A DNA stretch of 64,000 nt from Antedon mediterranea. Taxonomy: Eukaryota > Animalia > Echinodermata. The notes beneath the pieces were generated by a model. It was not told the DNA's origin, made no database searches, and saw only the letters and a list, made by a program, of their open reading frames with translations. A program made the translations under genes and the position numbers. Shown here piece after piece: positions 865-60,918 of this stretch. Each line of letters starts with the position of its first letter. Positions within the stretch are counted from its first letter, which is position 1. The stretch lies in assembly GCF_964355755.1 (NCBI RefSeq), contig NC_092671.1:34854304-34918303 (forward strand), in the 5' to 3' direction.

Positions 865-3800
865 GCAGATGGACGCATACATGTACTAACTAAGAATAAT
901 AAGAAGATTATCGTAACAAAATTTTCCGATCTCAACAAACTGCATTCCACCTAATTTACCGTGTGGTAGTACATTAAATGTGAAATTTTGAGATTTCTTG
1001 TTTTTGCCCTGAAACCAGAATTTTAACTATTGTATACATTATAGACTGCATTAACTGTTTGGTGTGTGTGCTTTATTGTGATTCTTTTTATTGTAAATTG
1101 TGTTTTTTTTTTATTATTGTATTGCTAACCTGCCGGTTTTTAGTCATTTATTTGAACGCCATTTTGCTTAACAGCTTTGGTGAATTGATTATATTTTGTT
1201 CTTTTTCCAATACTACTTTATGAGCACGACTCAATATGAAAATAAATCGAGTCCTACACATTCCATAGATTGCTTTGAAAGTGACGAGGCTGGTTTATGC
1301 AAATATTTCACTCCAACACAACTTAATGAGCTACAGGCGCAAATTGATAACAATGGTATCTTTACAACGTTACACATGAATGCACGTAGTCTTCCAAAAC
1401 ACTTCGACGAAATTAGCATTATGTTAGATACCATAGGTCGTGCGTTTGATGTACTTGGTTTCTCGGAAACCTGGATAAATAAGAACACGCCAATTGACTT
1501 ATTAAATATCAATGGATACAATATGTACACTTGTAATAGAGAAGGTAGAGTCGGTGGTGGAGTTTGTCTATATTTAAAAGAACAAATCAACACCGTAACA
1601 CGTGATGATTTTGTATTTAATGATAACTCCATTGATTCACTTTTTCTAGAAATAATAAACACAAACGGCAAAAATACTATTGTAGGTATGTTGTATCGAC
1701 CACCAAATTCAAACGTCAACTCATTTAACTCTGATCTGGAAGAAATCTTACATAAACTTAATCGCGAAAACAAAAACTGCTATATCTTAGGAGATTTTAA
1801 TCAAGACTTATTAAAATATGACATTCAAAAAACAACACAGGAATTCACAAACATTATTTACTCAACATCTTTTAATCCATTAATCAACTTACCCACCAGA
1901 ATAACATCGTCTTCTGCTACTATTTTAGATAATATTATTACAAATGATGATAACATTTCGCATTGTGGAGTAATAGTCACTGACATTACCGATCATCTAC
2001 CCATTTTCATGACAACACACTTGTCATTAAATACTAACACACAAGCTCCAATTACAAAACAAAAAGTAATTAATGATACAACATTAAATAACTTGCTTAT
2101 TGCTATTTCTAATGAGGATTGGGGTGAACTATATTTATGCACAGATACCAATACATCATATAACCTATTTATTAATAAACTATCCAATCTCATAGATAGT
2201 AACATACCTACAAAAAGTAATAAGCCAAATGGTAATACAAAGAAAAAACCATGGATCACAACAGGAATTTTGATTTCAATAAAAAAGAAAAATAAACTTT
2301 ATAAAAAATACCTTAAAAACCCAACACAATCATTAAAAAATATATATAAAAAGTACAAAAATAAATTAACTCATTTAATTAGAATTCGGAAAAACAATAT
2401 TATTCCAAAAAACTGGATGCAGCTCGACACGATTCAAAGCAAACATGGAAAGTTTTAAATGAAGTTCTAAATAGAAAAAAATCGAGTGTTAAGCCAAATG
2501 AGGTAATTAACCATAGTAATAAAACTTTGGTATGTGATCCAAAAGGTATGTCTGACGCTTTTAATGACTTCTTCTCCAACATTGGAAATGAATTAGCAAA
2601 CAAAATACCAAATGTAAACAATTCTGACTTTAAACAATATATGAAAGAGAGTCAATCCCAATCCATATTTTTCAATCCTACGAATGAAGAAGAGGTCATT
2701 GAAATAGTTAGTCAAATCAAAAATTCAAATTCAGAAGGTGTTGATAACTTAAGTAATTGCATTCTAAAACATATTATTGCTGCTGTGGCATCTCCTCTTG
2801 TACATATCTTTAACCTCTCTCTTGAGACAGGCATGGTCCCTGATAGTATGAAAGTAGCTAGAGTAGTTCCAATTTTTAAATCTGGCAATAAAAGTGACGT
2901 CAGTAATTATAGGCCGATCTCTATTCTGCCTACCGCTTCAAAAATTCTTGAAAAAATTGTTCAAATTAGAGTAAATAATTATATCACAAAGTTTAACATC
3001 CTTAATAATGCACAATATGGTTTCAGAAAAAACAGTTCTACTTTTATGGCCGTTATAGATCTGGTTGAACGAATAACCGATGCGCTTGATAAGAAAAAAA
3101 ATACCATCGGAATATTTATTGATTTGTCAAAAGCGTTTGACACCATCAACCATGATATACTTCTTAAAAAATTGGAACACTATGGCATAAGAGGCACGGC
3201 CCTTAAATGGTTTAGAAACTATATTAGTGGAAGGAAACAATTTACGTCTATTGATAACACAAGTTCGTGTTTGATGGATATAAATTGCGGTGTACCACAG
3301 GGTTCAATTCTGGGGCCTCTACTTTTTATTTTGTACATTAACGATGTATTTAATTGCTCAAACTCGTTATCTTTTGTTTTATTTGCTGACGACACAAACA
3401 TATCTGCATCTCACGAAAACTTGGATACGCTCATAGAACTAGTTAATGGTGAACTAAAAAATGTTTCGGATTGGTTCATGTGCAATAAACTATCAATCAA
3501 CGTTAAAAAAACTAATTACATAATTTTCCGCAATCAGCGAAATCCAAGTAATTTAGAGAATGTAAATATTTATGTCAACAATAAAAGAATAGATAGAGTT
3601 AAATCGACTAAATTCCTTGGAGTACATATTGATGAATTTCTCACATATAAGAACCACATCAATGTTACAGCTAGGAAAATATCTCGATATGTAGGCATAC
3701 TATATAAAGTAAGACATTTTTTACCAACCTATGCTCTCTGGACAATATACAAATCACTCATTGAACCAGTATTAAATTATTGCAACATAATATGGTGTAG

Positions 3801-4415
3801 CACATTTCCAAGTTATTTAGATGAGTTATTTAAACTCCAGAAAAGGGCATTACGAGCTATAACATGGTCAAAGTTTAATGATTCAATGACTGAATGTTTC
3901 TATAAATTTAAACTTCTTAAAATTGCTGATATCAATAAGTACCAAATTGGGCTTTTCATGTATAATGTTACTACTAATCAGGACGTGCGTTTTTCATCGC
4001 TCTTTATTAAAAATGGTTCTTACCATAATTATAATACAAGATCTAAAGACAAAATGAGACTCAGAAAACGTAATCGTACTTCTACTAGTTTTACTGTGTC
4101 ATGTGTGGGACCCAAATTGTGGAATGACTTGAATTACGAACTACAAAGTACCAAATCAATATATATATTTAAATCATTGTTTAAAGAACATTTATTATCA
4201 TTTTACAAATAATTTTAAAAATTATACTTGTTGCAGGATTTAGCTTTTTTATTATTTATGTTTTAGTTTTTTAGGCTAGTTAGGGACTTAGGGGGACACA
4301 ACTAATCAAGCTCTTTTGAGTTTTTATGTGTTTCCTTTTCATCTTTTTTATGTTCTCATATATTGTTGTTGTATATTTTCATGATAGAGGATGAATAAAG
4401 AATATTTGAATTTGA
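865..4415 (+). mobile_element. L2/CR1-group (Crack-like) non-LTR retrotransposon, 5'-truncated within ORF1
   Basis: ORF1-like C-terminal remnant ADGRIHVLTK...DLNKLHST* (865-954); APE+RT ORF2; 3' aataaag and (tttgaa)2 tail; TSD aaggcc at 859-864 and 4416-4421. Confidence 0.92.
1196..4212 (+). pseudogene. LINE ORF2 (apurinic endonuclease + reverse transcriptase) split by one -1 frameshift near 2383
   Basis: APE motifs HMNARSL, SETW, YRPP, GDFN, TDHLPI in ORF 1196-2458. RT motifs NYRPISIL, DLSKAFD, GVPQGSILGP, FADDT, KFLG in ORF 2527-4212. Restoring one A in 'agaattcgg' gives continuous RNSEKQYYSKKL...TWKVLN. Confidence 0.9.
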
Positions 4416-21368: not shown

Positions 21369-22618
21369 GCAAGTAATAGTTTAATTTTGCTCACATTACC
21401 ATGAACAGTTTACTCGATATTCAGTATATCAATGGTTCAGATATGGAAAGCAATTGAGGATGATGATTGATTTACGAAAAAACGCTTCCTTGATAATTCT
21501 ATCAGACTTTTTAGGAATTGTTCATCAGAGTAATTTTGTAGCTCTGTTGTATAATTTAGATATTGGGTTTTTTTTATATGTCTTAATAACATTTTTTTGC
21601 ACTTGTATATCAAATGAATTTCCTTTTTGACAAAGAAAATGAACTATGTATCATATTACATACACAGATAAAGAAAAAAAATAAATTTCTGTTTACATGT
21701 AGCCTACATAATGATGAGGAACAATGTGAATTCATCTAATTGTTGTTTATCATCTGTAGTATGAATGGGCATTAAAAGTGCTAACAAAAAAGAAATTGCA
21801 CAGTACAGTATTTTGTTATTGCTATGTATTTATTTTAGTTTACAAAAATGCAAATTGCTTTATAAAGCACACAAAATGTTAACAGAAATAGGATACAAAT
21901 TGTATTATACAAATACACAATCAATATTTTTATAAACAAATTGCAAAATATTGTTTCAAGATTTGAATTTCGAAGAAATGTTAGTAAATTTAAGATTTGC
22001 GGTATAGCATGTAATTCCTAATATGGAAGTAAGCTCTCAACTTTGTAATATTTCCTTTTTAGGAGTTAAATCGTAAACCGCACCCTTATTGAAAAATAGT
22101 AATAATTGAACTGCCTTATAAATCAGGTCATTACAATTGTATGTCAATACACTCAAACTGAACTGGCTTTTATTCAAAACTGGAAACTTTCCCAAAACTA
22201 GAATTTTCTTTTTTGTGGGTCCTACAACTTAATAAAGACAAAAAAATGCTAAAACATTCAGAAACCCCAACTGAATTATGGACCCATAGTGTCTGGTTTT
22301 GGGAATGATGACTGTATTAATAATCAGAGACTTTGGCCCTTAATTAATGTATACTCTCAGCCAGTGTTCTTAAATGTTAAAACATAAAGAATCAATACTT
22401 AGTTAGTCTTAATTATTTTTAAACAATATAATAGTATCTATTTATTAAATAGCTTTAAAAGTAAACATAAATATACAAGTTACAGTACATAAGAAACAAC
22501 AAACCATTGGCTAACTCTATATTTTACTCAATAAAATAGAATTGATGTTATTGTCTGTTTCTTAAATCTTGCATTTGTGACCAACAACTGATAAATTTAT
22601 CACCTGTTATCAATTTAG

Positions 22619-24149: not shown

Positions 24150-25514
24150 TTAAATCTTTACCTGTTTCTTGTTAAGTTTGATAGCATTAATATAAAAATG
24201 TTCATTTTTCTCTGGGTCATCTTTTTTCTTTTGACCATCTTTTTTGTCTCGATCATCTGTTTCCTCATGATCATCTCTTTCGTCTCTATCATCTTCTTTC
24301 ACATTCATTGCCATGTAATCATACACATTTTGTGTGACCTTGTCTTCGTTGCCTATATTGTCATTAGGTCTCATGGCCATGTAATCATACACATTTTGTG
24401 TGACCGTGTCTTCGTTGCCTATAGTGTCATTAGGTCTCATGGCCATGTAATCATACACATTTTGTGTGACCGTGTCTTCGTTGCCTATAGGGTCATTAGG
24501 TCTTATGGCCATGTAATCATGCACATTTTGTGCAACCATTTCTTCGTTGCTTTTAGGGTCATCGGGCCCTGTGTTCATATCGATTGGTTGGTTGTTTATA
24601 TCTGTTACTTCAGTGATTCGTGTCATCCTCATATCGTCTCTGTCAGACATCTGGTTAGAATTTCTCTTGTACAGTAATGAGATTATTAGGAGTAATAGTA
24701 AAATAAAAATAACTGTACCTAGAGAGAGGCCAACGACCAACAACCTAGTGGGTTCGCCGAGTGTTTTGGATTGCCCTTCTATTTTTAACCTTGATGGTTC
24801 TATTTCACATGTTTTTGTGACATTCTCATTCCAAATTACCCTACATTGAAATGTAGCATTTAAATCCTGTTGTTTAACAGTGAAATCAAAGTACAGCGTG
24901 TATTCTTTGAAATTATCCTCACCGCTATAATATACTTCAATCTGAACCTGTTGTTCATTTCTCCACCATTCAATGCTCATTTTTGGATAGCCTATCATAG
25001 ATGTACAGGAAAATGCAACTTTCTGCCCGATTAAATATTTCTGAAAACTGGTAGCATCACAAATAGGATATTGCGCTGGTGGAGGATAATCAACTAACAG
25101 AACAATATTTCCGTAGGTGACTAAGTCACTATATGCACTACTGGTATGATAGGTATTACAAGTATAACAATTTCGATGAAGATATTGTCCAAGTCCTTCT
25201 TTAATCCATATTGTCAGTTCTGCTTCAGTGGAGTTGTTAACAGAGTAGGCCTGTGCTTCTTGGCTAAAGTCAGTTAGTTTGCCTTCCATATAAATTTCAC
25301 CAATACCGTGACATTTATGCCATGAAATAGTGTGTTCTGAGGTTGTAGCTCCTGTACAGTTCAGGTCAATTATATCACCTTCAGGGACACGTACGTATAC
25401 AGACTTGTACGGATTTTTTGGAGGATTAACTGTTTTTCTCGTTTGAGCTTCAGTCATTTGTAATGCAGTGAGTAAAATCATCAACACAATATTTACAATT
25501 TTGCCTCTTGCCAT
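24150..25514 (-). CDS. Single-coding-exon type-I membrane Ig-superfamily receptor (454 aa), nested antisense in a DNAJC13 intron
   Basis: Signal peptide; V-like domain (IDLNC..ISW..YTC); C2/CD80-like domain (YPPP..PIC..FSC..GYP..IEW..DLNATFQC); TM LLVVGLSLGTVIFILLLLLIISLLY followed by KR; tyrosine-motif tail. Good start context gcagtcATGG. Confidence 0.88.
   Translation of the reverse strand: MARGKIVNIVLMILLTALQMTEAQTRKTVNPPKNPYKSVYVRVPEGDIIDLNCTGATTSEHTISWHKCHGIGEIYMEGKLTDFSQEAQAYSVNNSTEAELTIWIKEGLGQYLHRNCYTCNTYHTSSAYSDLVTYGNIVLLVDYPPPAQYPICDATSFQKYLIGQKVAFSCTSMIGYPKMSIEWWRNEQQVQIEVYYSGEDNFKEYTLYFDFTVKQQDLNATFQCRVIWNENVTKTCEIEPSRLKIEGQSKTLGEPTRLLVVGLSLGTVIFILLLLLIISLLYKRNSNQMSDRDDMRMTRITEVTDINNQPIDMNTGPDDPKSNEEMVAQNVHDYMAIRPNDPIGNEDTVTQNVYDYMAMRPNDTIGNEDTVTQNVYDYMAMRPNDNIGNEDKVTQNVYDYMAMNVKEDDRDERDDHEETDDRDKKDGQKKKDDPEKNEHFYINAIKLNKKQVKI
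24305..24570 (-). repeat. 66-bp coding tandem repeat (VTQNVYDYMAMRPNDTIGNEDT), ~4 copies
   Basis: ccatgtaatca recurs every 66 bp (24311, 24377, 24443, 24509). Confidence 0.95.
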
Positions 25515-29309: not shown

Positions 29310-30397
29310 AATAATAATAATAATAATCGGTTACTGCCCTAGATACAAAAATACACATACCAAATTATTTTTCTGTCCACCATATAGATAAAAATAATAG
29401 CATGTAACTAATTTTTCTTTCTAGGCAATTGAGCATGTTATGTTCTTTTTAAAAAATACTAAATTAACAGCTTATCATTAATAAAATGAATGTGAATCAA
29501 AAGTTTTAAGAAAACAATGTTTGTTTAAAGGTTCTTGTATTTTTGAGTAAAAAATAAATTAATAGACAACAGAAGGAATAATGTTTAACATTGTCAATAG
29601 TACCTTTCTATTGACTATGGTTTAGAATCAGTCGTGTGAGATAAGATAGTTGGAGGAAGAGGAGGTTGTACTATGGTTATAGCAATGTTTTCTAACAAAA
29701 GTGTTCCTAAAACTGAACAAACTATATCTGTTAAAATTAACTCAATGCCATAATCATCTCCGGTATTAAAAATCATCTGATATTTATTATGAAATCTCAA
29801 TTTTTATTTCATTATTATATGCTGAATTTATTATTTTTCCTTTTTTGTTTACATATAAGTATATAGCAATTTATATAGTAGTGTAAATTGTAGTTTAAAA
29901 TATATTGTGTTTATTATTGATATAGATAAATGTCACATAAGAATAACATATTTTATACAGATTCACAAATAATGGTATAGTCCTATTTTTAATGATGTTA
30001 AAAATGTTATGTTTGGTTTTTTGTTATATGGTATGACATTACTAAATGTCTTCCAATATTTGCTTGATAAATGGAAGTACTAGATAGATTATAAATTAGA
30101 TAGATTACTCTTATTAATTGTATTGATAAAGAAGACAATATGACATGCTATATCATGTGTATATAATGTATAATTTTGAAAATTAAAATATAAAGAAAGC
30201 CATGTCACCATTAATTCATAATTTTTATGAATAAAACATATTGTATGCCAATTGATTGTATAAATATATGTTTGATTCATTGTTTTGATGATTTTTTTTT
30301 GCTCATTTTTTCTTTTATTTGTCCAAAATATTTGCCCTCGGAGCTTTTAACCACTTTTCTATGAATCTCAATACTGCACCTTTTCTATAGATGATCA

Positions 30398-30860
30398 TTA
30401 AGCCCTGATCCTGTTCATCATCCCTTAAGCCCTGACCCTCTTTCTCATCCCATTAAGCCCTGAACCTCTTTCTTAATCCCTTTAAGCACTGATACTCTCT
30501 TTGTCATCCCCTTAAGCCCTGATCCTTATCCTCTGAAACCCTGATTATCATCCTCTTAAGCCCTGATCCTCTTCCACTGAAGCCCTTATCCTTATTCTCT
30601 TAAACCCTGATCATCATCCTCTTAAGCCCTGATCCTCTTCCACTGAAGCCCTGATCCTCTTCCTCCTAAGCCCTCATCCTTATCCTCTTAAACCCTGATC
30701 CTCATCCTCTTAAGCCCTAATCCTCTTCCACTGAAGCCCTGATCCTCATCCTCTTAAGCCCTGATCCTCTTCCACTGAAGCCCTGATCCTGATCTTCTTA
30801 AGCCCTGATCCCATCCTCTTAAACCCTGATCATCTTCCCTTTAAACCCTTATTATCCTAC
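30398..30860 (+). repeat. ~20-21-bp minisatellite (aagccctgatcctcttccactg-like)
   Basis: More than 20 degenerate copies. Confidence 0.9.
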
Positions 30861-32502
30861 TCATCACCTGTTTTTTTTTTCTTTTATTTTAAAGACATAG
30901 GTTTGTCCAGCTCATACAAGACTATATATGAGATAAACTAATGAAGAGAGACTCGAAGCTGTGCCAATTATATTGGTATATGTTGTGTTGTCTGCCTTTA
31001 ATAATAAGTACAAGACAATTGGGCTATATGATATTATTTGAAGCACAGGTCCTGCAACCAGAGTATTTTTTCTCCGGAATGAGAAGTTTCTTCGAGAAGT
31101 ACTGCATAATTTCCATTTCTAATTTTCCATTTTGAATTTAACGATGGTAACAATTTAGTTCTAGTACATGCCTTAATAGTAGATTTAGGTTACTCAATTG
31201 GAGTCCTCTAAAAAAGATACCAAAACATTTTCATGTAAGCCTATTTTATTTGCAGATTATTCAAAAGCTATTTTCAGGGGTTTTTTTGCAGAATATTCAT
31301 GAGGCATTTCCTCAGACTTCCAGGTCCGTGTAAGTAATAATATCTAAGTTTGTATGAAATAAACACACATCTCAATGATTAGCCTCCATTTCTTGTTTTT
31401 TACTGCAAAAATCTCCAAATGCAAAGATTCATCAGATTAATTATGGTATGATGCGAAAGAAGTATACAGTTTTTGTCATTGCGATCGAAGAAATGTCCTG
31501 ACCATTGCATTGATCATAATATTATGTTGTTTAAACATTTGCACGTCGAAGAAATGCTAATAAGGTCATGGTTTGCGGTATAGCATGTAATTCCTAATAA
31601 GGAAATAAATTCTTAACTTCACCTTTTTAGGAATTAAATTGTATTTGGTTTTTACTATGACGCAATTCAAGGACGTAAAGTGCAATGCAAGTAATTTGAC
31701 CAATCATAAGCAATGGATTATACAAACTTTGGTTTGTCATTGGTCAACATGCTTGCTTTGCACGTATGTGTAAGTCTGCATACGTTGTCTCTTAATAAAT
31801 CATGTTTTTCAGATGATCTGTCAATACATTCAAGTAGTCCAAAACCAAACACGTTAATAGTTTGATTTTTCTGTTGAACTCCATTTTGCTCACTAACATG
31901 AAAAATCTGTATATGAGTGATAAAGGAAGATAAAATTTACACACAGTACGTATTTGCTACTTAATTGCTTTATGTTTATTTTGGTTTACGAAATGTCCAT
32001 AGAAATGTCCATAGAAATAGCAGAACAAAGTATTTACAATATGCAATCAATATTTTTAGTGGTTAAACAAATTTATAACATTTTTTTTTCTTATATTTTT
32101 ACTTTTTGTATAATATTGTGCTTATAGTTTAAATTAATTTCACCATTCCATAATTTAATTAGTATAAAACTATAATGAGATTGAAGCCATGATTCGTTAA
32201 TATTCCTGATCACAATAAAATTACACTCTATTTTGTTTAAAAATAAATTTTTAATAAATAAAATAGATCATACAGTATATCATGTAGTTGAACAACCAGC
32301 TACTAGCATGCCTAGATAAAGTCTACAATTGCCAGTGGCCATCAGTGGTATCAATCAATAGAAAGAGCATACAAATTGTATTAAACAATAGGCAATCAAT
32401 AATTTCATAATTACAGTATTTTATATACAAACAGTTTTAAATTTCGAGAGAAATGCTAATAAAAATGATTATGGTTTGCAGTGAAACATGTAATTCCTAA
32501 TA

Positions 32503-33175
32503 CGTCGTGAGGTGGTTTCCCGAATGATCGTAAAATCAAAACGGTACTGGTTATGACCAATTAGACAATTCTTGTCACCAACTAGTCATCCGTTCATAGA
32601 AGTACTGATGTAGTAGCCTACCTGTACGGTGACCATAGAATGTGACCCGAGACATGACTAACTACGACTTTTAGATGATAGAAAGTTGAGAAAAAATTTG
32701 TTACGAGTAGTTGTACGATATGAAGATGTTGATTACAATATGTTAAAGATGTAAAACATACTACACTAGGCGTATAAACAGTAATGTTTGTTTGTAAAAA
32801 CAATTTTATGTTAAAAGATATAAGGAAGAAAAGCAAAGAGATTGTGGAGCGGCTGTACCTGAATATACAATACAAGTATTGTAAGGTTAAAAACTAGAAA
32901 TTTAGCCGATCTTGTCAAAGGTCAAGCGCCTTCAGCCTGCCACGTTTCGATATTCGATATTGAACTTGACCTGACATGGTTCCACAATAATTTTATGTTA
33001 AAAGATATAAGGAAGAAAAGCAAAGAGATTGTGGAGCGGCTGTACCTGAATATACAATACAAGTATTGTAAGGTTAAAAACTAGAAATTTAGCTGATCTT
33101 GTCAAAGGTCAAGCGCCTTCAGCCTGCCACGTTTCGATATTCGATATTGAACTTGACCTGACGTGGTTCCACAAT
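32503..33175. mobile_element. Insertion resembling a solo LTR, containing a near-perfect 187-bp tandem duplication (32802-33175)
   Basis: Termini cgtcgtga (degenerate TG) ... ccaca; interrupts a block homologous to DNAJC13 intron sequence; TSD not clean. The duplication itself is certain. Confidence 0.4.
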
Positions 33176-33962
33176 ATCTTTATATGAAAAATTTGTAGAG
33201 TGGATAGAAAATTATTAAAAGGTTATTGTTAAACTGTTTTTAATATACGTTATTCGTTTTAATGTTAAACTATGTTTTTTTCATACCAAGCCTACCACAC
33301 CCTTAAAAAATAGTGAATAATTCAGGTCTTTTGTCCAAAGACTCAAAAAGGTGTTCAGAACAAAACATTCTTTAAAAACCAGAATTCTTCTAATCCTACT
33401 TCTTTCTACAAAATGTCTAGAAAATTAAACTGAATTATGGGATATGTTCAAGATGTCAAATTGTGTCAAAGCTAATCAGAGACTTTTTTTGTCTACCATT
33501 CTTTTGTCTATTCTATGTGTGGTAGGGAAAAGAGGAAACAACATAATCATCTTAATTAATTAAAAAAAATATAATATTATTTAATTAAATCTAAGCTTTA
33601 AGCAAACATACATATACAAAATACACAAGATGATACACGATTTAGGCACTTTTTAAAGACTAACACACAGATATACCCACCTATAGTCATCATCGGTTAG
33701 ATGGAGAGCAAAAGAAGAAGATATGTTTTTTCAGTTTCAAAAGGCAAATACATAGCCAAAAAATGTTGTTATTGTTTTTAAGCGTAGGCTAGGCTAGGCT
33801 AGGCTAGTCCTACTATAACAAAGTTCAGAATAAAAAAAAAACAATATTAATCACTATAAGCTTGGATGTTGTCAAATGATTCATGTGAAGTTAGGCTTCA
33901 CTACTAAGTAGTAGTATATCATGCAAGCTTATTGTTTATTGAACACCGTACACATATTCTGT

Positions 33963-34739
33963 TCACATTATTTTAACAACCTCATACACATCTTCGATCA
34001 TTTTTTTGTTGCCTTTAGCGGTTGGTTTGTTGTATATGTCTGTTACTTCAGTGATTACTGTCATCTTTTGATCATCTTTGTTTGTCATCTGGTTTGAAGG
34101 ATTTCTCTTGTACAGTAATGAGATTATTAGGAGTAATAGTAGAATAATAATAACTGCACCTAGGGACAGTCCAATGACCAAGGTCCTTGTCGTTTCAATG
34201 CACGGGGTCTCTGATGTTGTAATTGTTGTCTCTGGTGTTGAGGTCATACTCTTCGGTGTTGTGGTCACTGTCTCTAATGTTGCGCTCCATGTCTTTGTTG
34301 ATGCTGCTGTTGTAAAATATAATTGTTTATTAATATGTTTCAGCACTCTGCATTTTTTCCTATGCAACTTTTCTTTATAATACAACTTACATATGAGGTC
34401 AATTTCATCACCTTCACGGTGTTTAGTTGGCAGTTGACATGTTATGGTCCCATCCTTTGCTGCTGTTGTCAACTGTGATTTTTCAGTTTGTTCCTTTATT
34501 GTGCCGCATGTGTTGACATCCTCTTTCCAAGAAATATATTCAGATTGGTATGATCTCATTTCGTCATTATCCCAAATACATCTGAGATAAATGGTATGAC
34601 CTTCATAAGTACATACAATAGGCCTAGTATTACCAGATTTATAATTCCATTCTTTTTCAGATATTGTTTGAGTCATTTTCAGTACATTTGCAATGAGTGA
34701 AGTTATCCACAAAATATTTACAACTTTGCCTCTCGCCAT
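33963..34739 (-). CDS. Single-coding-exon type-I membrane protein (258 aa), paralog of the nested Ig receptor: degenerate Ig-like ectodomain, Thr-rich stalk, TM, short tail ending DVYEVV
   Basis: Same start (cctgcagtcATGGCRAGAGGCAAA; MARGKxVNI); 40-nt identical TM/juxtamembrane DNA (24661-24700 = 34102-34141); AATAAA on - strand ~23 nt after the stop. Confidence 0.8.
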   Translation of the reverse strand: MARGKVVNILWITSLIANVLKMTQTISEKEWNYKSGNTRPIVCTYEGHTIYLRCIWDNDEMRSYQSEYISWKEDVNTCGTIKEQTEKSQLTTAAKDGTITCQLPTKHREGDEIDLICKLYYKEKLHRKKCRVLKHINKQLYFTTAASTKTWSATLETVTTTPKSMTSTPETTITTSETPCIETTRTLVIGLSLGAVIIILLLLLIISLLYKRNPSNQMTNKDDQKMTVITEVTDIYNKPTAKGNKKMIEDVYEVVKIM

Positions 34740-36148
34740 GACTGCAGGTTTGATTAATATTGAATGTAAATTTATAAATTCACTTCCTTAAAACGAGGTT
34801 GTAAACTAAACAAACAAAATGATACATTTCACAACCAATAGTTGCACTTTTTATTTTATAAACAAATAGTCCTTTCCTTCAATAAATGTATATAAAATGT
34901 TGGACATAAATTAAAACAAATGTATAACCAATTTAGTGTTAAGCATTGTCTTGGAATGTTAAAATATCATAAGGACGGATTTATTCTTTTATCACACACA
35001 CCTTAATACCTATAATTATTAAATTATTGTATATACTGTACATATACAAATGATAATCAACTGGAATTTCCTAAAAAAAAGCATAAATAAAAGTGAATAA
35101 TTTCATCCAACCATTTCTTCCAACAAGGTCTGTATACATTTTTAAATGTTTAAATTTAGTTTTAGCATGACCAAAGAAAAGTTGATCAATGGCTAGTTGC
35201 CATCCCTCAAATATGTTATATGAACATGTCAACCAGTACTATAATGATGTATTTAAAGCATGTGCTACTACTGCCTGTAAATCAGTCAATGGGTTAAAGG
35301 TGAAAGGCCAATGTACAACAATGAATACTATAGGCTAATGTGTACATGAATGTTGACCTCTGTCCTTTTTTTAAACTTACATTGAATGTAAATGTTCTGT
35401 TGGGTTTTCTTTCTAAAATCTTCAAGATTGAACAACTGAAATTGTTATCATGGAAGAAGTATAAAAAACAAAACGTCGGTCTTATCACTAAAGTTATGAA
35501 CATATTTCGGAAAGACACATTTAATGGACGAATTTTTCACTTATTGCACAGATTATTTGTTTTAACCTGAAAGTTTAACATGAATGCTTTCTTAAAAAAC
35601 ACATTTAGATATAAATAGGTTTAGATAATCCAAGTCATCAAGGTATGCATATTAAGCTGCTGCTGTATTTATTTACATATTGAATATTTTATTCAAATTG
35701 TCAAAGACACACTGCCTCTTTTGGAAATGATGTAATAGGTAAAAGTTAATCAATATATGCTAACAAATGTAAGTAACTGGAAGGGCTATGCTACACCACC
35801 TCACACAGAATGGTATGATGAAACACACTGTTTATAGTTTAATACAGTTCTATGAATTATAATGGCTGAAAAAACTAATTCATGTTCTATGTCAATTGTG
35901 GGTGGAGCCTATATAATTCCAACCAACCTAATCATTTCCCTCATGCCAGGAAACAGGACAGTAGGATGATAGTCATAGTCAGAGTATGAATGTAAAATAC
36001 CATTTTTCATTTGTTGTCAATAAATTATTACAACAACTATAATTCCTGTTCAATTAAATTTGTAGCTGGAGCCAAATTCTGACCAACCAATCATGTTCAT
36101 AAATCCACTATTGCAAGTGTTTAATGCACACTTTTTCCTCCTTTTCTT

Positions 36149-36277
36149 TTATGACTTTAGTGTATGGTTTATCATGATATTTGCAAGGGCGTTGCGACGG
36201 CATCTCCAAAATCCAAGAGGAATGCTGTAATGTTTCACCAGCATCAACCAGCTATCACACTCTTCAGAATTTTCACA
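36149..36277 (-). CDS. RhoGEF last exon (CENSEECDSW...RRNALANIMINHTLKS*)
   Basis: tttag| acceptor; TAA stop. Confidence 0.87.
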   Translation of the reverse strand, partial: CENSEECDSWLMLVKHYSIPLGFWRCRRNALANIMINHTLKS

Positions 36278-36370
36278 CTAAAAAGGATTAAAATAAATAC
36301 AGGTCATATAAAGTACGGGACATTTTCAGTACTCTAAAAACATGATTTAATTTATAGTACATAATTTTAC

Positions 36371-36463
36371 CTTTAAGTCAATGGTGTCGCCCTCCATTTC
36401 TGTAATGGTAAATTCATCTGATGTGTCGGAGCTTACAATACATTTTTCTAGTTGAAGTGGATC
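36371..36463 (-). CDS. RhoGEF exon, PH region (DPLQLEKCIV...IDLK)
   Basis: GT-AG, phase 0. Confidence 0.87.
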
Positions 36464-36728
36464 CTGTAAAAACATGAAATAATATAAATTGTTAGAATCA
36501 TTTCTTATTAGTTTAATTAGTATGCTTACAAAGAGATGTGAACCATACTTTTAGAACTTTCTAAATGGGTATACTAAGAAAGCCTTTGGGAACTAATTTC
36601 ATATGTTTACTTCACTTTTGCTTTGTGAAAATATAACCTTCATCTTTCACCTCATGATGAATTATTTGGCCCATTGCATAAAACATTCATTATTTGTATA
36701 TTATAGTTTGGCTAACTACTGTATTTAC

Positions 36729-36860
36729 CCTAACAACAGCACATTTTCCAGCAGCTTTTTCTTTTATCAGAACCAATGCAGCTTTCTGACCTCCATCGGC
36801 GTGAGGAAACAGCATACCATTCTTGGGAAGGTTTGCTTCAATTTCAGACAAACGATCAAC
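36729..36860 (-). CDS. RhoGEF exon, PH region (VDRLSE...AALVLIKEK...VVR)
   Basis: GT-AG, phase 0. Confidence 0.87.
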
Positions 36861-36949: not shown

Positions 36950-37292
36950 TTTTATTTTATTCAATCGAAACCAACAGCGATAATTACCGCCACTAACAGG
37001 TTTGATACAAACAAAGCCAGGACTGTTTAAAGCACCTTGATTGGTCCTGACATTGATCAAGGGCTTCTCTCGTCCAGTGCCCACCCTGACCAGAGGTCTG
37101 AGGCAGATACTAGATGCAGGGGCTGCCATAAGAGTCAGCAGTACTGATTTCAAATGCCTAACGGGACCCCGGCTCCGTATACAGCACCCGCTATTCCCAG
37201 ATGGTCTCCCATCCAAGCTCTAACCAGGCCCAACATTGCTTAACTTCGGTGATCTGACGAGAACCGGTGTTTCAACGTGGTAAAGCCGTAGA
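36950..37292 (-). mobile_element. 5S rRNA-derived SINE (SINE3-type): 5S head 37177-37292 plus ~225-bp unrelated body and A-rich tail
   Basis: - strand ctacggctttaccacgttgaaacaccggttctcgtcagatcaccgaagttaagc...ggatgggagacc..ctgggaatagcgggtgctgta is a diverged 5S. No oligo-T terminator follows it; the body ends in aataaaataaaa. Confidence 0.75.
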
Positions 37293-49330: not shown

Positions 49331-49730
49331 CTGCAATTCAACCATTAAAATAAAATGTTACTATTAATTATGGAAGGTTTTTTGAAGTAAATGCTCAACA
49401 ACAGGCATATTTAAACAACTTAATATTTACATTAAAATTATTTTAAGTGGTAAAGAACAAAATTTAATGTATAATATTGAAAGAAGAAGTGTTGGTTGCA
49501 ATCAAGTTTTAAATTTTCAGTCAATTGTGGTCTGGAAAAAACTCATGGACAATATCAGATATGTGAATTGCTATGTTGAGAAGAAATCTGCAAATATTTG
49601 GAAGCTTTTGTAATCCCAAAAACAAAAATGTGTATTGCAACTAATAATGATGATACATACAGGTACGTAAAAATTATAAATAAAATTTAAAAAAGAAGTT
49701 TAAAGATTAGTGAATATAAAGGAATCTTAC

Positions 49731-51771
49731 CTTGACTTGTTGCTCTTCTTAACGCTTTATTTTCCTCTGATTTTATCAAGTCATTTTGTTCTTTTTCTGT
49801 CGATTTTCTTCTCTCTCTTATTTCTTTTTCACTTCCTTTTGTTATTTTTCGTGTTAAAAATGGAGACTTAAATCGTTCTACTGGTTCACTCCTGCGCAGT
49901 CTTGTTCTTGAAGTTGACCGCTTTTCTTTAGGTTGTGAAATATCTCTAGAACTTTCTCTTGAATTTCTTTCATCTGTTTTTTCTTCTGACTTATCTTTAT
50001 GCTCTTTTTCTGGTTTTGACAACACTCTTGAAGTCTTTAAACCTTCTTTACTTTTCCTTCGAGTTACCTTGGAGTCAACACCAATATTCTCACTGGATTT
50101 GCTACCAAATACTTTAGGAACTTCTTCATCCAATTCACTATTAGGTAAGTCTGAGTTAATGTTCTGATTTTTCTTTTTCTGTGTACTCTCTGACTTTCTG
50201 GGTGAGACTAGCTTAATTCTTAAGTCACTAAGTTTTTTCATTTGTTTGAACTCTTCAAAGGATGGAATGTGAGTCTTTGGCTTAGATTGCAACCCCAAAC
50301 TATTACATCTACCTCTAGGAGTTTCTGAAAGATTCATAGATGGACTTTCATTGAATGTTGTCATCTGCTCAATTGGACAATTTTTATATGTATCTAAATT
50401 TGAAGGAACACTACCAGACTTTCTAAGTTCTTTACCAGATGATGGCTTGTCTCCACATAGTGGAGTTATTCCACCTTTTTTTTCTTTCCAAGCAACTGTC
50501 GGCTCACTACTTGGTTTTTTGTTTTCAATGTTATTGTTATCCGGTGTGGAAGGATAATTATCATTGTAATTGAGTGAATAAATAGGTTGTGAAATATCAG
50601 TAACAGATGCCTCTGAATTTTCAAACATACTTTGGAAAGAAAATGCTTTTAAAGGTGTTGGTGACATACTTCGGCTGCGACTTAAATTGGAACTTTCAGC
50701 AATAAGAGAGGCAACAGGTGATTTCTGTGTGTCAAAGTCTGTAGGACCTTCCCTAAGATCAAGACTATCATTATTCTTTAGATATTTCCTTAGCTTGGTT
50801 GTACTCTTCAGGGCTTCAGACCTGGGAGAGATTGTCTTAAAATTTCTTAAAGTATCCTTCTCAGACTTTGATCTGTATAAGTTTGATTTGCCATCCATTA
50901 CAGATGAGTTCTTCTTCTCTTCTGTAGTGATGACAATCGCAGGAGAAGCTGCACATCCTGGTAAATTATCCCATTGTTTGTCAATAATTGAACTTGTTAA
51001 ATCACAGTTGGATGATAAATAACTTGGTGTTGAAGATAAATAAGAAGAAACTGAAAAATCTACAGGATTGGAAAATGACCGTGTAATCAAAGATCGACTC
51101 TGGTCATGAACAGGGCTTGGGGTTGCAGATCGTAACCCGGTAAAAGTTTTTTGGGCTGTTGAATGTGTTGTCCATGATGGTGAGTATGGTCTGTTTGTAT
51201 AACTTGCGCTATCAGACATCCATGCAGTTGTTGGTTTAGAAAAATTCAAGTTTTCAATACTAGATTTTGGTTTCGCACGCATGTTAGAAAATTCCTGGTT
51301 TATAGAATCATTACTGGCATTTAAAGGTGATCTGGAATCATCATGTCTTATTAAATCAGAAGAAATCGTGCCTTGTCGTAAATCTGGAGAAACTGTACAT
51401 TGCCGTAAATCTGTTAAAGAATCTGAGGTTCTAGTCTTGTACAAATCATTGTAACTTACTGAACTTGATGTTAAATTTGATTGTAACGCTGTATCAGAAT
51501 GCAAATTTACAGAGTATATTGACAATCCTCCAATGCCCGAACTACTTCCATTTTTTCTCCCAACTAATGGAGATTTTGACAGTGAATTTCTACGATATGA
51601 GTAACCTCCATGGGAATAATTCAGGAATGAAGGCCCAGGAGTGGATGTTGCTCCATAGCCAAGGCTAGAATAGCTGCCAGATAATGTAGACCCCTTCGAG
51701 GAGGCTTTGTCAGTTAAGCCTGATGTATCATGAATTGAGTATGGTAGGCCTGCCATGATTTTGTTCTTCAT
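49731..51771 (-). CDS. RhoGEF large first coding exon (~680 aa, Ser-rich, probably disordered)
   Basis: 694-aa ORF with donor CAAG|gtaaga at 49731; candidate acceptors upstream of the ATG at 51794 and 51935. Confidence 0.82.
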
Positions 51772-58519: not shown

Positions 58520-60918
58520 CTATCTATGTAATTGTTGGTAAACAAGAAAAGTGTAAAGCTCATAAGCATAAATATAAAACAAGTAGAAACTACAAACATT
58601 TTAATGAAAATGAATTTAAAAGGGATATTGAAAAAATAAACTGGCAAGAAATTCAACATTATAATGATATTGATGACGCTACATATTTTTTCGAATCTAA
58701 TTTTCTTAAAATTGCTAATGATTATGCCCCGCTAAAAAAGAAGAGGGTGCGAAACAAAACTAGTCCTTGGCTAACAGATGATCTAGTTAGGTCTATGCGT
58801 GAGCGTGATGTACTAAAAAAGAAAGCATCTAAAACTAATACACCTGAAATGTGGGCTCAATACAAACTAAGTAAAAATAAGGTAAATGCTGAAATAAAGA
58901 AATGTAAAAAAGAATATTTTTCTAAACAATTAGATACAAAAGATTCAAAGAAAATATGGGAAACTTTAAGATATATTGTCCCAGCAAAGAGTATAAACAC
59001 TGAAATATCAAACTTAAAAACAAATGATAACAAACTAACAGCAGACTCTTCTAAAATAGCCAACAATTTAAACAAATATTTTTCTAAAATAGGACCTGAC
59101 CTTGCAAAAAACATCCCACCAGAAATTCCTAGATTACTTATTGTAAATAATACTAATCAAAGTAGGGACCTACTTAAATTTAGTTTTGTTAATCAGGAAT
59201 ATATTTATAAACAATTAAACGCACTCGATGTTAGTAAAGCGACAGGCTTAGATGAGCTTCCAGCTAAAATGCTGAAGTTGGTTATTGATCAAATCGTTGG
59301 ACCTCTCACTTATTTGGTAAATCTCTCACTCTCAACCAGTACTTTTCCAAAAAGATGGAAATGTGCCAAAATATGCCCAGTGTTTAAGGGGGGAGATAGG
59401 ACTGAAGCTAGCAACTACAGACCCATATCAATTTTACCGATTCTTTCTAAAATTATCGAGAGGGTTGTATTTGATCAGGTCTATCAATTTATTAACTCAA
59501 AAAATATGATTTATGCTTACCAATCAGGATTTCGTCCTAATTTCTCTACTGTATCTTCATTATTAAACATTACAGAAGATTGGATAAATGATATTGATTG
59601 TGGGAAGTATATAGGTTTAGTCATGCTTGATCTGAAAAAAGCTTTCGACACGGTAGACCATACCATACTTATAGACAAGCTTAAATCATTTAACTTAGAT
59701 GTCTCTATTATAAATTGGTTTAAAGACTATCTTTGTGATCGTACGCACTTAACACAAGTAAATGGTGTCCGATCAGATAAATGCTATAGTAATTGTGGAA
59801 TCCCCCAAGGATCAATTTTGGGACCACTCTTATTTATACTTTATGTAAATGATCTACCAAAGCATGTAAATAGTGTACAGATTAGTATGTATGCAGATGA
59901 TACAGCTCTTTACTTTGCATCTTCTGATATAAATGAAGTACTTGCAAAAATTAATGAAGATTTAAAAAAAATCAAATCATGGCTAGCAAGTAACAAGCTT
60001 AGTCTAAATGTAAATAAAACTCAGTGTATGTTTATAGGAACACAACAAAGGCTTGCAAAATTAGCAAACATTGATCTAAATTTAAACATAGACAATGTTC
60101 GGCTACAAAGAGTAAAAAGCTGTAAACATCTAGGTGTTGTTATTGATGAATATTTACTGTGGGATAAACAAATAGATAATGTTAAAAGTAAAGTATTGCC
60201 AGGCTTGTACTACTTAAAAAAATCTTCAAATCTCGTCCCAAAACATGTATCTTGCTTAATGTATAATAGTATTATCTCTCCACAGTTTAACTATTGTAAT
60301 ATTGTGTGGGGCAGATCAAATAAAAAAAATACTAATAAACTACAAATGCTACAAAACAGAGCAGCCAAAATTATTACAAAAACAAGGAAATACGACTCAA
60401 GTACACAAGCCCTGCAAAACTTAAACTGGATAAATCTTAATACTCAACTACATAATAATGAAGCCAAAATGTTATATAAAATATTCCATAATCAAGCACC
60501 ACCATATCTAAACGAACTATTTACACCCAAACTAGACACATACAATACAAGATCAAAGGATGTATTAAAATTGAATAAACCCAAAACAGAATATAAAAAA
60601 AAAAGTTTTTCATATCATGGTGCTAGTTTATGGAATACTCTAAAAAAACCAATGCAAAATGCCACAAATTTGAATACTTTCAAAAAATTATTGGTGTGAT
60701 TTTTTATTTATTTTGTACTCTTATCACAAATGTAATTAAGGTTTCTGTTCATATATTTTTGTTCTCTAATTTGTTATTTTTAAAATTTGTTATTTTTAAA
60801 ATTTGTTATTTTTAAAAATTTGTTATTTTTAAATGTGTAATGTACTACTGTTAGTTGATCACGGCCTTGTAGAAGAACACCTTTATGGTGACACAAGCTT
60901 TTCCGTGTTAAAATAAAG

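What the first reader, a model, noticed from the sequence alone, without database searches (positions are those of the whole stretch)
33963..34739. Second family member: same leader and TM, radically different ectodomain and tail (possible paired or hypervariable receptor system)
Seen: the two genes share aacctgcagtcATGGCRAGAGGCAAA, a 40-nt identical TM-end block and the juxtamembrane ITEVTDI. The ectodomains barely align: gene 2 has a degenerate Ig-like region (EGHTIYLRC..ISW..EGDEIDLIC) and a Thr-rich mucin-like stalk. Its tail lacks the YMAM array and ends in a YxxV motif (EDVYEVV; ITIM-like but without the hydrophobic -2 residue). Known: conserved anchors with diversified ectodomains and alternative tails typify paired immune and allorecognition receptors (KIR/LILR/SIRP, Hydractinia Alr1/Alr2). 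Inference: an undescribed, rapidly diversifying invertebrate receptor family with contrasting signalling outputs.
Basis: partly seen in the sequence, partly recalled or inferred. Interest (0 to 1): 0.82.

Follow-up and report, generated by a model that had tools for sequence, protein, structure and literature searches.

The report
Feather-star mosaic immunoglobulin receptor paralogue
A likely feather-star gene is a tandem duplicate of a neighbouring immunoglobulin-type surface receptor that kept the same leader and membrane anchor but carries a rebuilt, patchwork outer domain and a shortened version of the same tyrosine tail, so it is likely a fast-turnover recognition receptor rather than the 'off' half of an on/off pair.

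Summary
33963-34739(-) is an open 258-codon paralogue of the V+C2 Ig receptor at 24150-25514(-); they share the leader, a 41-nt identical TM block and ITEVTDI. Gene 1's closest relatives are uncharacterised crinoid proteins, and DNA contigs show at least three further TM-sharing sequences. Gene 2's ectodomain is a mosaic: two V-domain starts 63 codons apart (one 26/32 nt like gene 1), no C2 domain, and a Thr stalk. An Ig-like fold is likely but weakly predicted. The tail is not a different module: it is one unit of gene 1's tyrosine repeat, cut by a TGA with a degenerate second unit behind it. EDVYEVV is no ITIM; it fits the Botryllus core-2 / hemITAM-like pattern. Paired-receptor criteria fail (shared TM, unlike ectodomains, no ITIM, ITAM or charged TM residue). 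No hypervariability was seen in two samples; the single difference found is a W31-stop in one low-depth contig. Transcription is not shown. Best reading: a birth-and-death crinoid IgSF family with modular ectodomain exchange. The scan earlier found larger intronless Ig arrays of this style on other DNA of this genome.

The parts
33963..34739 (-). Gene 2 coding sequence, 258 aa, one uninterrupted ORF: signal peptide, Ig-like region, Thr stalk, TM, 48-aa tail
34740..34750 (-). 11-nt leader identical to gene 1; reads as a YAG splice acceptor plus Kozak context (inferred; no contig bridges it)
34668..34739 (-). Predicted signal peptide, weaker than gene 1's (hydropathy about 1.25 against 1.5)
34647..34649 (-). 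Codon 31 (TGG, Trp); one contig of run X1 reads TAG here, a possible null allele
   Evidence: table 3 (34648 C>T, depth 5.52, one contig)
34311..34658 (-). Single Ig-like beta-sandwich region (aa 28-143; Cys 43, 54, 78, 101, 117, 130; Trp71); register of the F and G strands unresolved
34527..34604 (-). First V-domain start (EGHTIYLRC...SEYISW), aligning with A'-B-C of the family V domain
34388..34419 (-). Second V-domain start (EGDEIDLIC), 26/32 nt identical to gene 1 at 25355-25386 (EGDIIDLNC)
   Evidence: (0 of 300 codon shuffles reach it)
34197..34313 (-). Thr/Ser-rich stalk standing where gene 1 has its C2 domain; Cys180 next to the membrane
34113..34181 (-). Transmembrane helix, no charged residue; 26/31 aa identical to gene 1 over the TM segment
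34101..34141 (-). 41-nt block identical to gene 1 (24660-24700); longer than expected, a possible conversion tract
   Evidence: (p 0.007 by site, 0.017 by codon shuffles)
33966..34109 (-). Cytoplasmic tail with Y236 (YNKP, a YxxP) and Y252
33975..33995 (-). EDVYEVV tyrosine motif, positional homologue of gene 1's QNVYDYMAM unit; core-2 / hemITAM-like, not an ITIM
33935..33962 (-). In-frame remnant behind the stop (TEYVYGVQ*): degenerate second tyrosine unit, overlapping an AATAAA
   Evidence: 14/18 nt; 12 of 5000 shuffles
24150..25514 (-). Gene 1, 454 aa: signal peptide, V-like and C2-set Ig domains, TM, tail with four 22-aa units (six YxxM)
33550..33625 (.). Non-coding block 78% like 22407-22484 downstream of gene 1; with 32357-32502 against 21881-22023 (74%) it suggests a tandem segmental duplication

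Best explanation
Gene 2 is a tandem paralogue of gene 1 in a likely crinoid family of immunoglobulin receptors with uninterrupted coding regions; it kept the leader, membrane helix and one tyrosine unit of the tail, while its outer part was likely rebuilt by recombination or internal duplication plus deletion into one predicted Ig-like domain on a threonine-rich stalk, so it likely acts as a recognition receptor with a different ligand and a simpler, probably activating output. Shown: paralogy, the shared anchors, two V-domain starts, absence of the C2 domain, tail homology and truncation, and further TM-sharing sequences. Inferred mechanism: an unknown ligand clusters the receptor (Cys180 could link dimers), a Src-family kinase phosphorylates Y252 in EDVYEVV (and possibly Y236), and an SH2 protein of Syk/Shark or adaptor type docks, whereas gene 1 would recruit PI3K through its YxxM array (motif-to-effector links recalled, untested). 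The family likely turns over by birth and death, with null alleles segregating.
For: Paralogy. Anchors at dS 0.30, dN 0.16 over 68 codons; non-coding blocks at 74-78%. V-region DNA scores 44, whereas neutral evolution of gene 1's V to d=0.3 or 0.47 never fell to 44 in 200 runs each (minima 210 and 76), so the ectodomain is not simple drift. Two V starts: family profile hit aa 1-73, E 0.0009 in the window's six frames, and 26/32 nt at codons 107-117. A family V profile scores aa 28-146 at 11.2 bits, reached by 0 of 994 shuffles; the C2 profile gives 2.8 bits, reached by 94 of 997. ESM features: 9 of the ten best family hits share a family or clan (lead only). Long-term selection: a neutrally decaying frame stayed open in 21 of 3000 runs at 0.15 substitutions per site, and in 0 of 3000 with indels. 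Modularity: Antedon mediterranea XP_071960071 is 42% like gene 1 over V+C2 but its tail is unrelated (129 of 300 shuffles equal it). Family: X5 holds gene 1's allele plus other TM-bearing contigs (records 11, 12/13, 15/16), and loose ends show different juxtamembrane continuations. DVYEVV equals the core-2 pattern [A/D]VYxxV and resembles hemITAM-like motifs in Botryllus FcoR (PMC12582321 section 13).
Against: Transcription is not shown. The only difference seen in a second sample is a stop at codon 31 (one contig, depth 5.5; 51 of 861 possible single changes there are nonsense). Fold predictions are weak: pLDDT 40 alone and 57 with a V-biased alignment, last 22 residues under 50; no Foldseek match at E<=0.001; best Z 8.1, to FN3-type sandwiches. 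Anchor dN/dS of 0.51 is not significantly below 1 (Fisher p 0.12). The 600 nt flanking start and stop do not align (135 and 38 of 200 shuffles equal them), so an older duplication with conversion at the anchors is equally possible. No homologue of gene 2 itself was found. An immune role and every signalling step are inferred only. Y252 has two of the three acidic residues and Val instead of Leu, so it is not a canonical hemITAM.
Confidence: 0.55

Rival explanations
1. Gene 2 is a decaying paralogue: once functional, then crippled by deletion of most of V and all of C2 and by tail truncation, and now collecting null alleles.
For: Possible W31-stop allele; premature TGA with a remnant tyrosine unit behind it; two partial V starts that may not form one domain; low pLDDT; weaker signal peptide and no N-glycosylation sequon.
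Against: The frame is open over 258 codons in the window and in the X5 contigs that cover 33560-34051 and 34112-35300 with no other letters; neutral decay almost always closes it; Cys54, Trp71, both tyrosines and the TM are kept; an AATAAA lies 23 nt behind the stop.
Confidence: 0.2
2. The two genes are adhesion, guidance or growth receptors with no immune role (gene 1 feeding PI3K growth or regeneration signalling, gene 2 a spacer or modulator).
For: V+C2 architecture; more distant hits include a 'CD166 antigen homolog'; YxxM arrays also serve growth-factor signalling (recalled); little polymorphism seen.
Against: Lineage-restricted, tandemly expanded, with rapid ectodomain and tail turnover between crinoid species, a pattern more typical of recognition families.
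Confidence: 0.12
3. Gene 2 is the inhibitory counterpart of gene 1: pYEVV recruits an SHP phosphatase and dampens gene 1's PI3K signal, perhaps through heterodimers held by the near-identical TM.
For: YxxV core; near-identical TM and juxtamembrane region; tandem position.
Against: No ITIM or ITSM, Asp at -2; ectodomains too different to share a ligand, the defining feature of paired receptors; the motif is the positional homologue of gene 1's unit.
Confidence: 0.08
4. Gene 2 is a hypervariable allorecognition determinant like Hydractinia Alr1/Alr2 or Botryllus fester.
For: Ig-like domain with a spacer and tyrosine tail; family with divergent ectodomains and likely pseudogenes, as in the Alr complex (PMC9546547 passages).
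Against: One difference in 287 nt in a second sample, and no second allele contig over the ectodomain in X5; Alr domains sit on separate exons and many Alr tails carry ITAM or ITIM, unlike here.
Confidence: 0.05

Closest known systems
Uncharacterised crinoid V-C2-(stalk)-TM proteins: Antedon mediterranea XP_071960071; Anneissia japonica LOC117111446, 117111448, 117111453, 117111454, LOC117122970
   Same: Homologous V+C2 ectodomain with gene 1 (42% and about 26-33%); similar signal peptide in XP_071960071; four of the Anneissia genes have the same longest-contig length (289,181), suggesting a cluster; short tyrosine-bearing tails.
   Different: Their TM and tails are unrelated to those of genes 1 and 2 (one borderline at 10 of 300); none has gene 2's one-domain mosaic ectodomain; no function is annotated.
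Botryllus schlosseri FcoR / fester family (PMC12582321; passages and section 13 read)
   Same: Invertebrate deuterostome IgSF multigene family with tyrosine motifs; DVYEVV matches core-2 ([A/D]VYxxV) and resembles the hemITAM-like PDDVYAIL.
   Different: FcoR core-2 motifs come in pairs 29-33 residues apart, here single; FcoR lack YxNM-type PI3K motifs; the FF-FcoR pairing and allorecognition linkage are not seen here; no sequence homology was tested or implied.
Hydractinia Alr family (PMC9546547; passages read)
   Same: Clustered, highly divergent V-like receptors with spacer, TM and tyrosine tails; pseudogenes among them.
   Different: Alr domains are encoded by separate exons, the spacer is FN3-like, tails carry ITAM or ITIM and diverge more than the ectodomains; here the coding region is uninterrupted and TM/tail are the conserved part.
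Vertebrate paired receptors (Siglec-11/16, PMC5701461 passages; KIR/LILR/SIRP recalled)
   Same: Tandem duplicates about 9 kb apart, possible gene conversion, a possible segregating null allele.
   Different: Inverse geometry: paired receptors homogenise the ectodomain and differ in TM and tail; no ITIM, ITAM or charged TM residue here.
TIM-1 / CD300 / CD8-alpha-type single-V plus O-glycosylated stalk receptors (recalled; CD8-alpha and VSIG4 appear among ESM look-alikes)
   Same: Overall architecture of gene 2.
   Different: No significant sequence match; architecture only.

Membership tests
Paired receptors (KIR/LILR/SIRP/Siglec type) | Highly similar ligand-binding ectodomains | tested here: not met
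   V regions 27/117 aa identical, C2 absent in gene 2; definition from PMC5701461
Paired receptors (KIR/LILR/SIRP/Siglec type) | One member with an ITIM, the other with an ITAM or a charged TM residue | tested here: not met
   No ITIM, ITSM or ITAM in either tail and no charged residue inside either TM
Paired receptors (KIR/LILR/SIRP/Siglec type) | Overlapping expression and opposite signalling | not testable with these tools
   Needs tissue RNA and signalling assays
Allorecognition determinants (Alr1/Alr2, fester) | Extreme allelic polymorphism of the ectodomain | tested here: inconclusive
   1 difference in 287 nt in sample S1; no divergent second allele laid at 80% or more in S2; only two samples, contigs only
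Hydractinia Alr family | Each domain on its own exon; ITAM or ITIM tails | tested here: not met
   Uninterrupted ORF; motif scan; Alr features
Allorecognition determinants (Alr1/Alr2, fester) | Genetic control of fusion or rejection; allele-specific binding | not testable with these tools
   Needs crosses or grafts and binding assays
IgSF V-set domain (gene 2) | B-strand Cys and C-strand Trp | tested here: met
   Cys54 and Trp71 align with the family V domain
IgSF V-set domain (gene 2) | F-strand D-x-G-x-Y-x-C and a complete G strand | tested here: inconclusive
   Two registers: Cys117 as F or Cys101 as F as in the weak CD47 match; no tyrosine corner in either
IgSF V-set domain (gene 2) | V-type fold | tested here: inconclusive
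   pLDDT 40 and 57; beta sandwich; Foldseek E>=0.016, mostly VHH, PD-1, CTLA-4; VIA best Z 8.1 to FN3-type domains; Pfam V-set_CD47 18.6 bits, below its cutoff of 21
hemITAM ([E/D][E/D][E/D]xYxxL) | Three acidic residues before xY and Leu at +3 | tested here: not met
   IEDVYEVV has two acidic residues and Val at +3; consensus
Botryllus FcoR core-2 motif | [A/D]VYxxV | tested here: met
   DVYEVV; the paired 29-33 aa spacing of FcoR core-2 is not met
Unnamed crinoid V-C2-TM receptor family (XP_071960071, LOC117111446 group) | Homologous V+C2 ectodomain | tested here: met
   Gene 1: E 3e-46 to 4e-10. Gene 2 belongs through its paralogy with gene 1 and its N-terminal profile hit but lacks C2

The most novel reading that the evidence does not exclude
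Crinoids diversify intron-free Ig receptors by recombining sub-domain pieces between a fixed signal-peptide anchor and a fixed TM anchor. Gene 2's domain would be a new folded Ig unit stitched from two V half-domains, with a duplicated B-strand cysteine reused as the F or G strand, giving a new ligand-binding surface on an inherited signalling stalk: germline receptor shuffling below the domain level, without introns.
Probability: 0.2. Interest if true: 0.72.

Novelty: new variant of a known kind. Interest (0 to 1): 0.42.

Why it matters
Lineage-specific IgSF families with tyrosine-motif tails are described in cnidarians, tunicates and vertebrates; my searches found no description for crinoids. 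This pair would add an echinoderm case in which the membrane anchor is the conserved part and the ectodomain is rebuilt, the inverse of paired receptors. It gives a two-gene, uninterrupted-ORF model for asking how new Ig binding domains arise and die. The interest is moderate: function and expression are untested, gene 2 may be decaying, and larger arrays of the same style were already noted in this genome.

Tried and rejected
No whole genome is held, so no genome-wide count was possible. Word-index protein searches found nothing for gene 2 (523 candidates) or gene 1 (4086 candidates); they are insensitive, since gene 1's 42% relative was missed. No RNA holder was listed on record. Run X1 is 'RNA?' by guess: one contig starts its match exactly at the AG acceptor at 36277 (record 8), which suggests spliced RNA, but X1 has depth in all 30 bins, introns included, so its 287-nt contig on gene 2 does not show transcription; holes in X1 over gene 2 prove nothing. 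An X1 contig of another paralogue has depth 92.7, but contig depth cannot rank genes, so I did not use it. Summed TM-block depth in X5 (about 3000-3800 against 300) is no copy number and overlapping contigs inflate it; I counted distinct contigs instead. Gene 2's own 34052-34111 was not covered by a listed X5 contig. Compensating frameshifts: the other two frames of gene 2 are full of stops and no family profile or tblastn hit lies in them; rejected. Gene 2 ectodomain as a C2 domain like gene 1's D2: not supported by the profile. Stalk homology to the XP_071960071 stalk: compositional only (744 of 1000 shuffles equal it); rejected. A whole-ectodomain collinear alignment is probably forced by the aligner. 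Single-sequence fold and its Foldseek search were uninformative. (A2 profile against gene 1's C2, probability 3) added nothing. No third family member was found in the window. Sequence look-ups in earlier findings were blank, as was the near look-up. Literature searches for a crinoid or echinoderm description gave 0 papers or none on this family by listing; subscription papers are not covered, and no supplements were read.

Full report
Observation. The window is AT-rich animal DNA (GC 0.25-0.37). It holds two minus-strand ORFs, gene 1 (24150-25514, 454 aa) and gene 2 (33963-34739, 258 aa). They share a 62-nt start region at 87% with 16 identical nucleotides, and a 166-nt TM/juxtamembrane region at 84% that contains a 41-nt identical block. 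Protein comparison gives 49/85 identities for TM plus tail (E 1e-14) and 21/55 for the N-terminus. Gene 2's frame is not chance: 0 of 20000 shuffles of the gene and 1 of 20000 of the ectodomain are stop-free. Started from the present frame, neutral decay of 0.15 substitutions per site left it open in 21 of 3000 runs, and in 0 of 3000 with indels; at 0.075 the counts were 192 and 4 of 3000.

Relatives. Gene 1 has Pfam Ig_3, I-set and C2-set_2 hits above cutoff. An exhaustive search gave 58 proteins at E<=0.001; I looked up 10 of them. The best is Antedon mediterranea XP_071960071 (42%, E 3e-46), followed by Anneissia japonica LOC117111448, 446 and 454, all 'uncharacterized'; a profile search added LOC117122970 and LOC117111453 (4 hits among 6896 candidates). 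The organism is therefore likely a crinoid, as earlier notes on this genome also say. No whole genome is held. In DNA run X5, laid at 80% likeness, the TM block attracts gene 1's other allele (record 10, whose differences match gene 1's, plus one synonymous change inside the 41-nt block) and further contigs (records 11, 12/13, 15/16); loose ends in X1 and X5 show several different juxtamembrane continuations (16 of 42 pieces and 12 of 23 loose ends were displayed). That gives at least three more TM-sharing sequences. Over the gene 2 ectodomain (34209-34680) only its own contig lies, so it has no close relative among those contigs.

Ectodomain. A profile of 14 family V domains (gene 1 included; 2 of 16 candidates could not be split and were dropped) scores aa 28-146 at 11.2 bits, reached by 0 of 994 shuffles; the C2 profile scores 2.8, reached by 94 of 997. 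ESM features point to the Ig clan, as a lead only. Folding gave pLDDT 40 alone and 57 with a V-biased alignment; that model is a beta sandwich without a significant Foldseek match and with a best Z of 8.1 to FN3-type domains. An Ig-like fold is likely but not established, and two registers remain: Cys117 as the F strand or Cys101 as F with REGDEIDL as G, as in a weak CD47 match. The region contains two V-domain starts 63 codons apart. The first (EGHTIYLRC...SEYISW) sits at the expected place; the second (EGDEIDLIC) matches gene 1's EGDIIDLNC at 26/32 nt, reached by 0 of 300 codon shuffles, about the same identity as the anchors. One caution: the spliced neighbour gene spells EGDTIDLKC by apparent coincidence, so the protein motif alone is weak. 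The V-region DNA as a whole scores 44, while neutral copies of gene 1's V at d=0.3 and 0.47 never scored that low in 200 runs each; d near 0.8 is needed. Anchors diverge by dS 0.30 and scattered downstream non-coding blocks are 74-78% identical, but the 600 nt next to start and stop do not align. So either a fairly young duplicate received foreign or duplicated V sequence and lost the C2, or an older duplicate was homogenised at its anchors; the identical run is longer than expected (p 0.007-0.017), which fits conversion. Modularity is visible between species: XP_071960071 shares gene 1's V+C2 but not its tail. Compensating frameshifts are excluded.

Tail. Gene 1 has four 22-aa units with six YxxM sites, the classical PI3K p85 motif (recalled). 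Gene 2's tail is collinear with the juxtamembrane region and one unit (score 94, 0 of 300 shuffles): EDVYEVVKIM* stands against QNVYDYMAMNV, the DNA across the TGA aligns with gene 1's last unit, and a degenerate second unit (EYVYGV, 14/18 nt, 12 of 5000 shuffles) follows the stop in frame. It is a truncated homologue, not an alternative module. Neither tail has an ITIM, ITSM or ITAM, and neither TM has a charged residue. DVYEVV matches the Botryllus FcoR core-2 pattern and resembles its hemITAM-like motifs, whose function that paper calls unknown for the core motifs (PMC12582321, section 13 read). An activating or adaptor-type output is thus somewhat more likely than inhibition; this is inference.

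Expression and polymorphism. Transcription is not shown (see Tried and rejected). In X5, probably the window's own sample, gene 2's contig has no other letters over 34112-35300 and no divergent second allele was laid, whereas other family members appear as pairs of half-depth contigs. A second sample (X1) differs at 1 of 287 nt, and that change turns Trp31 into a stop; it rests on one contig of depth 5.5 and may be an error. Two samples cannot test population diversity, but nothing suggests hypervariability, and a segregating null allele is possible, as with SIGLEC16P (PMC5701461, passages).

Mechanism and rivals. Best reading (0.55): a live or recently live recognition receptor of a birth-and-death crinoid IgSF family, with a rebuilt single Ig-like domain on an O-glycosylated stalk, signalling through phosphorylation of Y252 and SH2 docking. 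Rivals: decaying paralogue (0.2), non-immune adhesion or growth receptor (0.12), inhibitory partner of gene 1 (0.08), allorecognition determinant (0.05).

Comparison and novelty. It fails the definition of paired receptors (similar ectodomains, opposite signalling) and differs from Hydractinia Alr in exon structure and motifs (PMC9546547, passages). It works like other lineage-specific IgSF tyrosine-motif families. A review of invertebrate IgSF has no mention of crinoids (PMC11999971, term search), and searches found no description of this family (open-access library only, no supplements read). Earlier unreviewed notes describe larger intronless Ig arrays with shuffled ectodomains and tails elsewhere in this genome; sequence look-ups did not link them to this pair. 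Verdict: real, a new variant of a known kind, interest 0.42.

Noticed in passing
window 36152-36860 (-): Last exons of an unrelated spliced gene (36729-36860, 36371-36463, 36152-36277), PH-domain-like by eye, no Pfam hit on single exons. An X1 contig begins its match at the 36277 acceptor. Its likely 3' UTR runs to within a few hundred bases of gene 2's start, and the spliced product spells EGDTIDLKC, a probable coincidence with the Ig motif.
   Followed up: partly
window 24150-25514 (-): Gene 1 tail: four 66-nt units with three YDYMAM double motifs (six YxxM) and a terminal YxN; contigs of all four laid runs show synonymous-position alternatives at 25338 and 25362.
   Followed up: partly
window 1220-4212 (+) and 58795-60699 (+): Two LINE-type retroelements with RVT_1 hits (E 7.5e-38 and 4.2e-39); the first is split into two ORFs.
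   Followed up: no
window 49687-51771 (-): 694-codon Ser-rich ORF without a Pfam hit, perhaps a large exon of the gene ending near 36150.
   Followed up: no
window 30395-30860 and 32799-33172: A 22-nt tandem satellite and an almost perfect 187-nt tandem duplication lie between the two receptor genes.
   Followed up: no
window about 37180-37275 (-): Looks by eye like a 5S-rRNA-derived repeat (recalled resemblance, not tested); the bin has very high summed depth in all runs.
   Followed up: no
protein P0062 (Anneissia LOC117111453): Lacks the end of V and the start of C2 relative to its paralogue P0061: a similar internal deletion in the family, or a gene-model artefact.
   Followed up: no
window about 34326-34388 (-), aa 118-138: Strongly basic stretch (KLYYKEKLHRKKCRVLKHINK) in gene 2's ectodomain; could bind polyanions, or mark degenerate sequence.
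   Followed up: no
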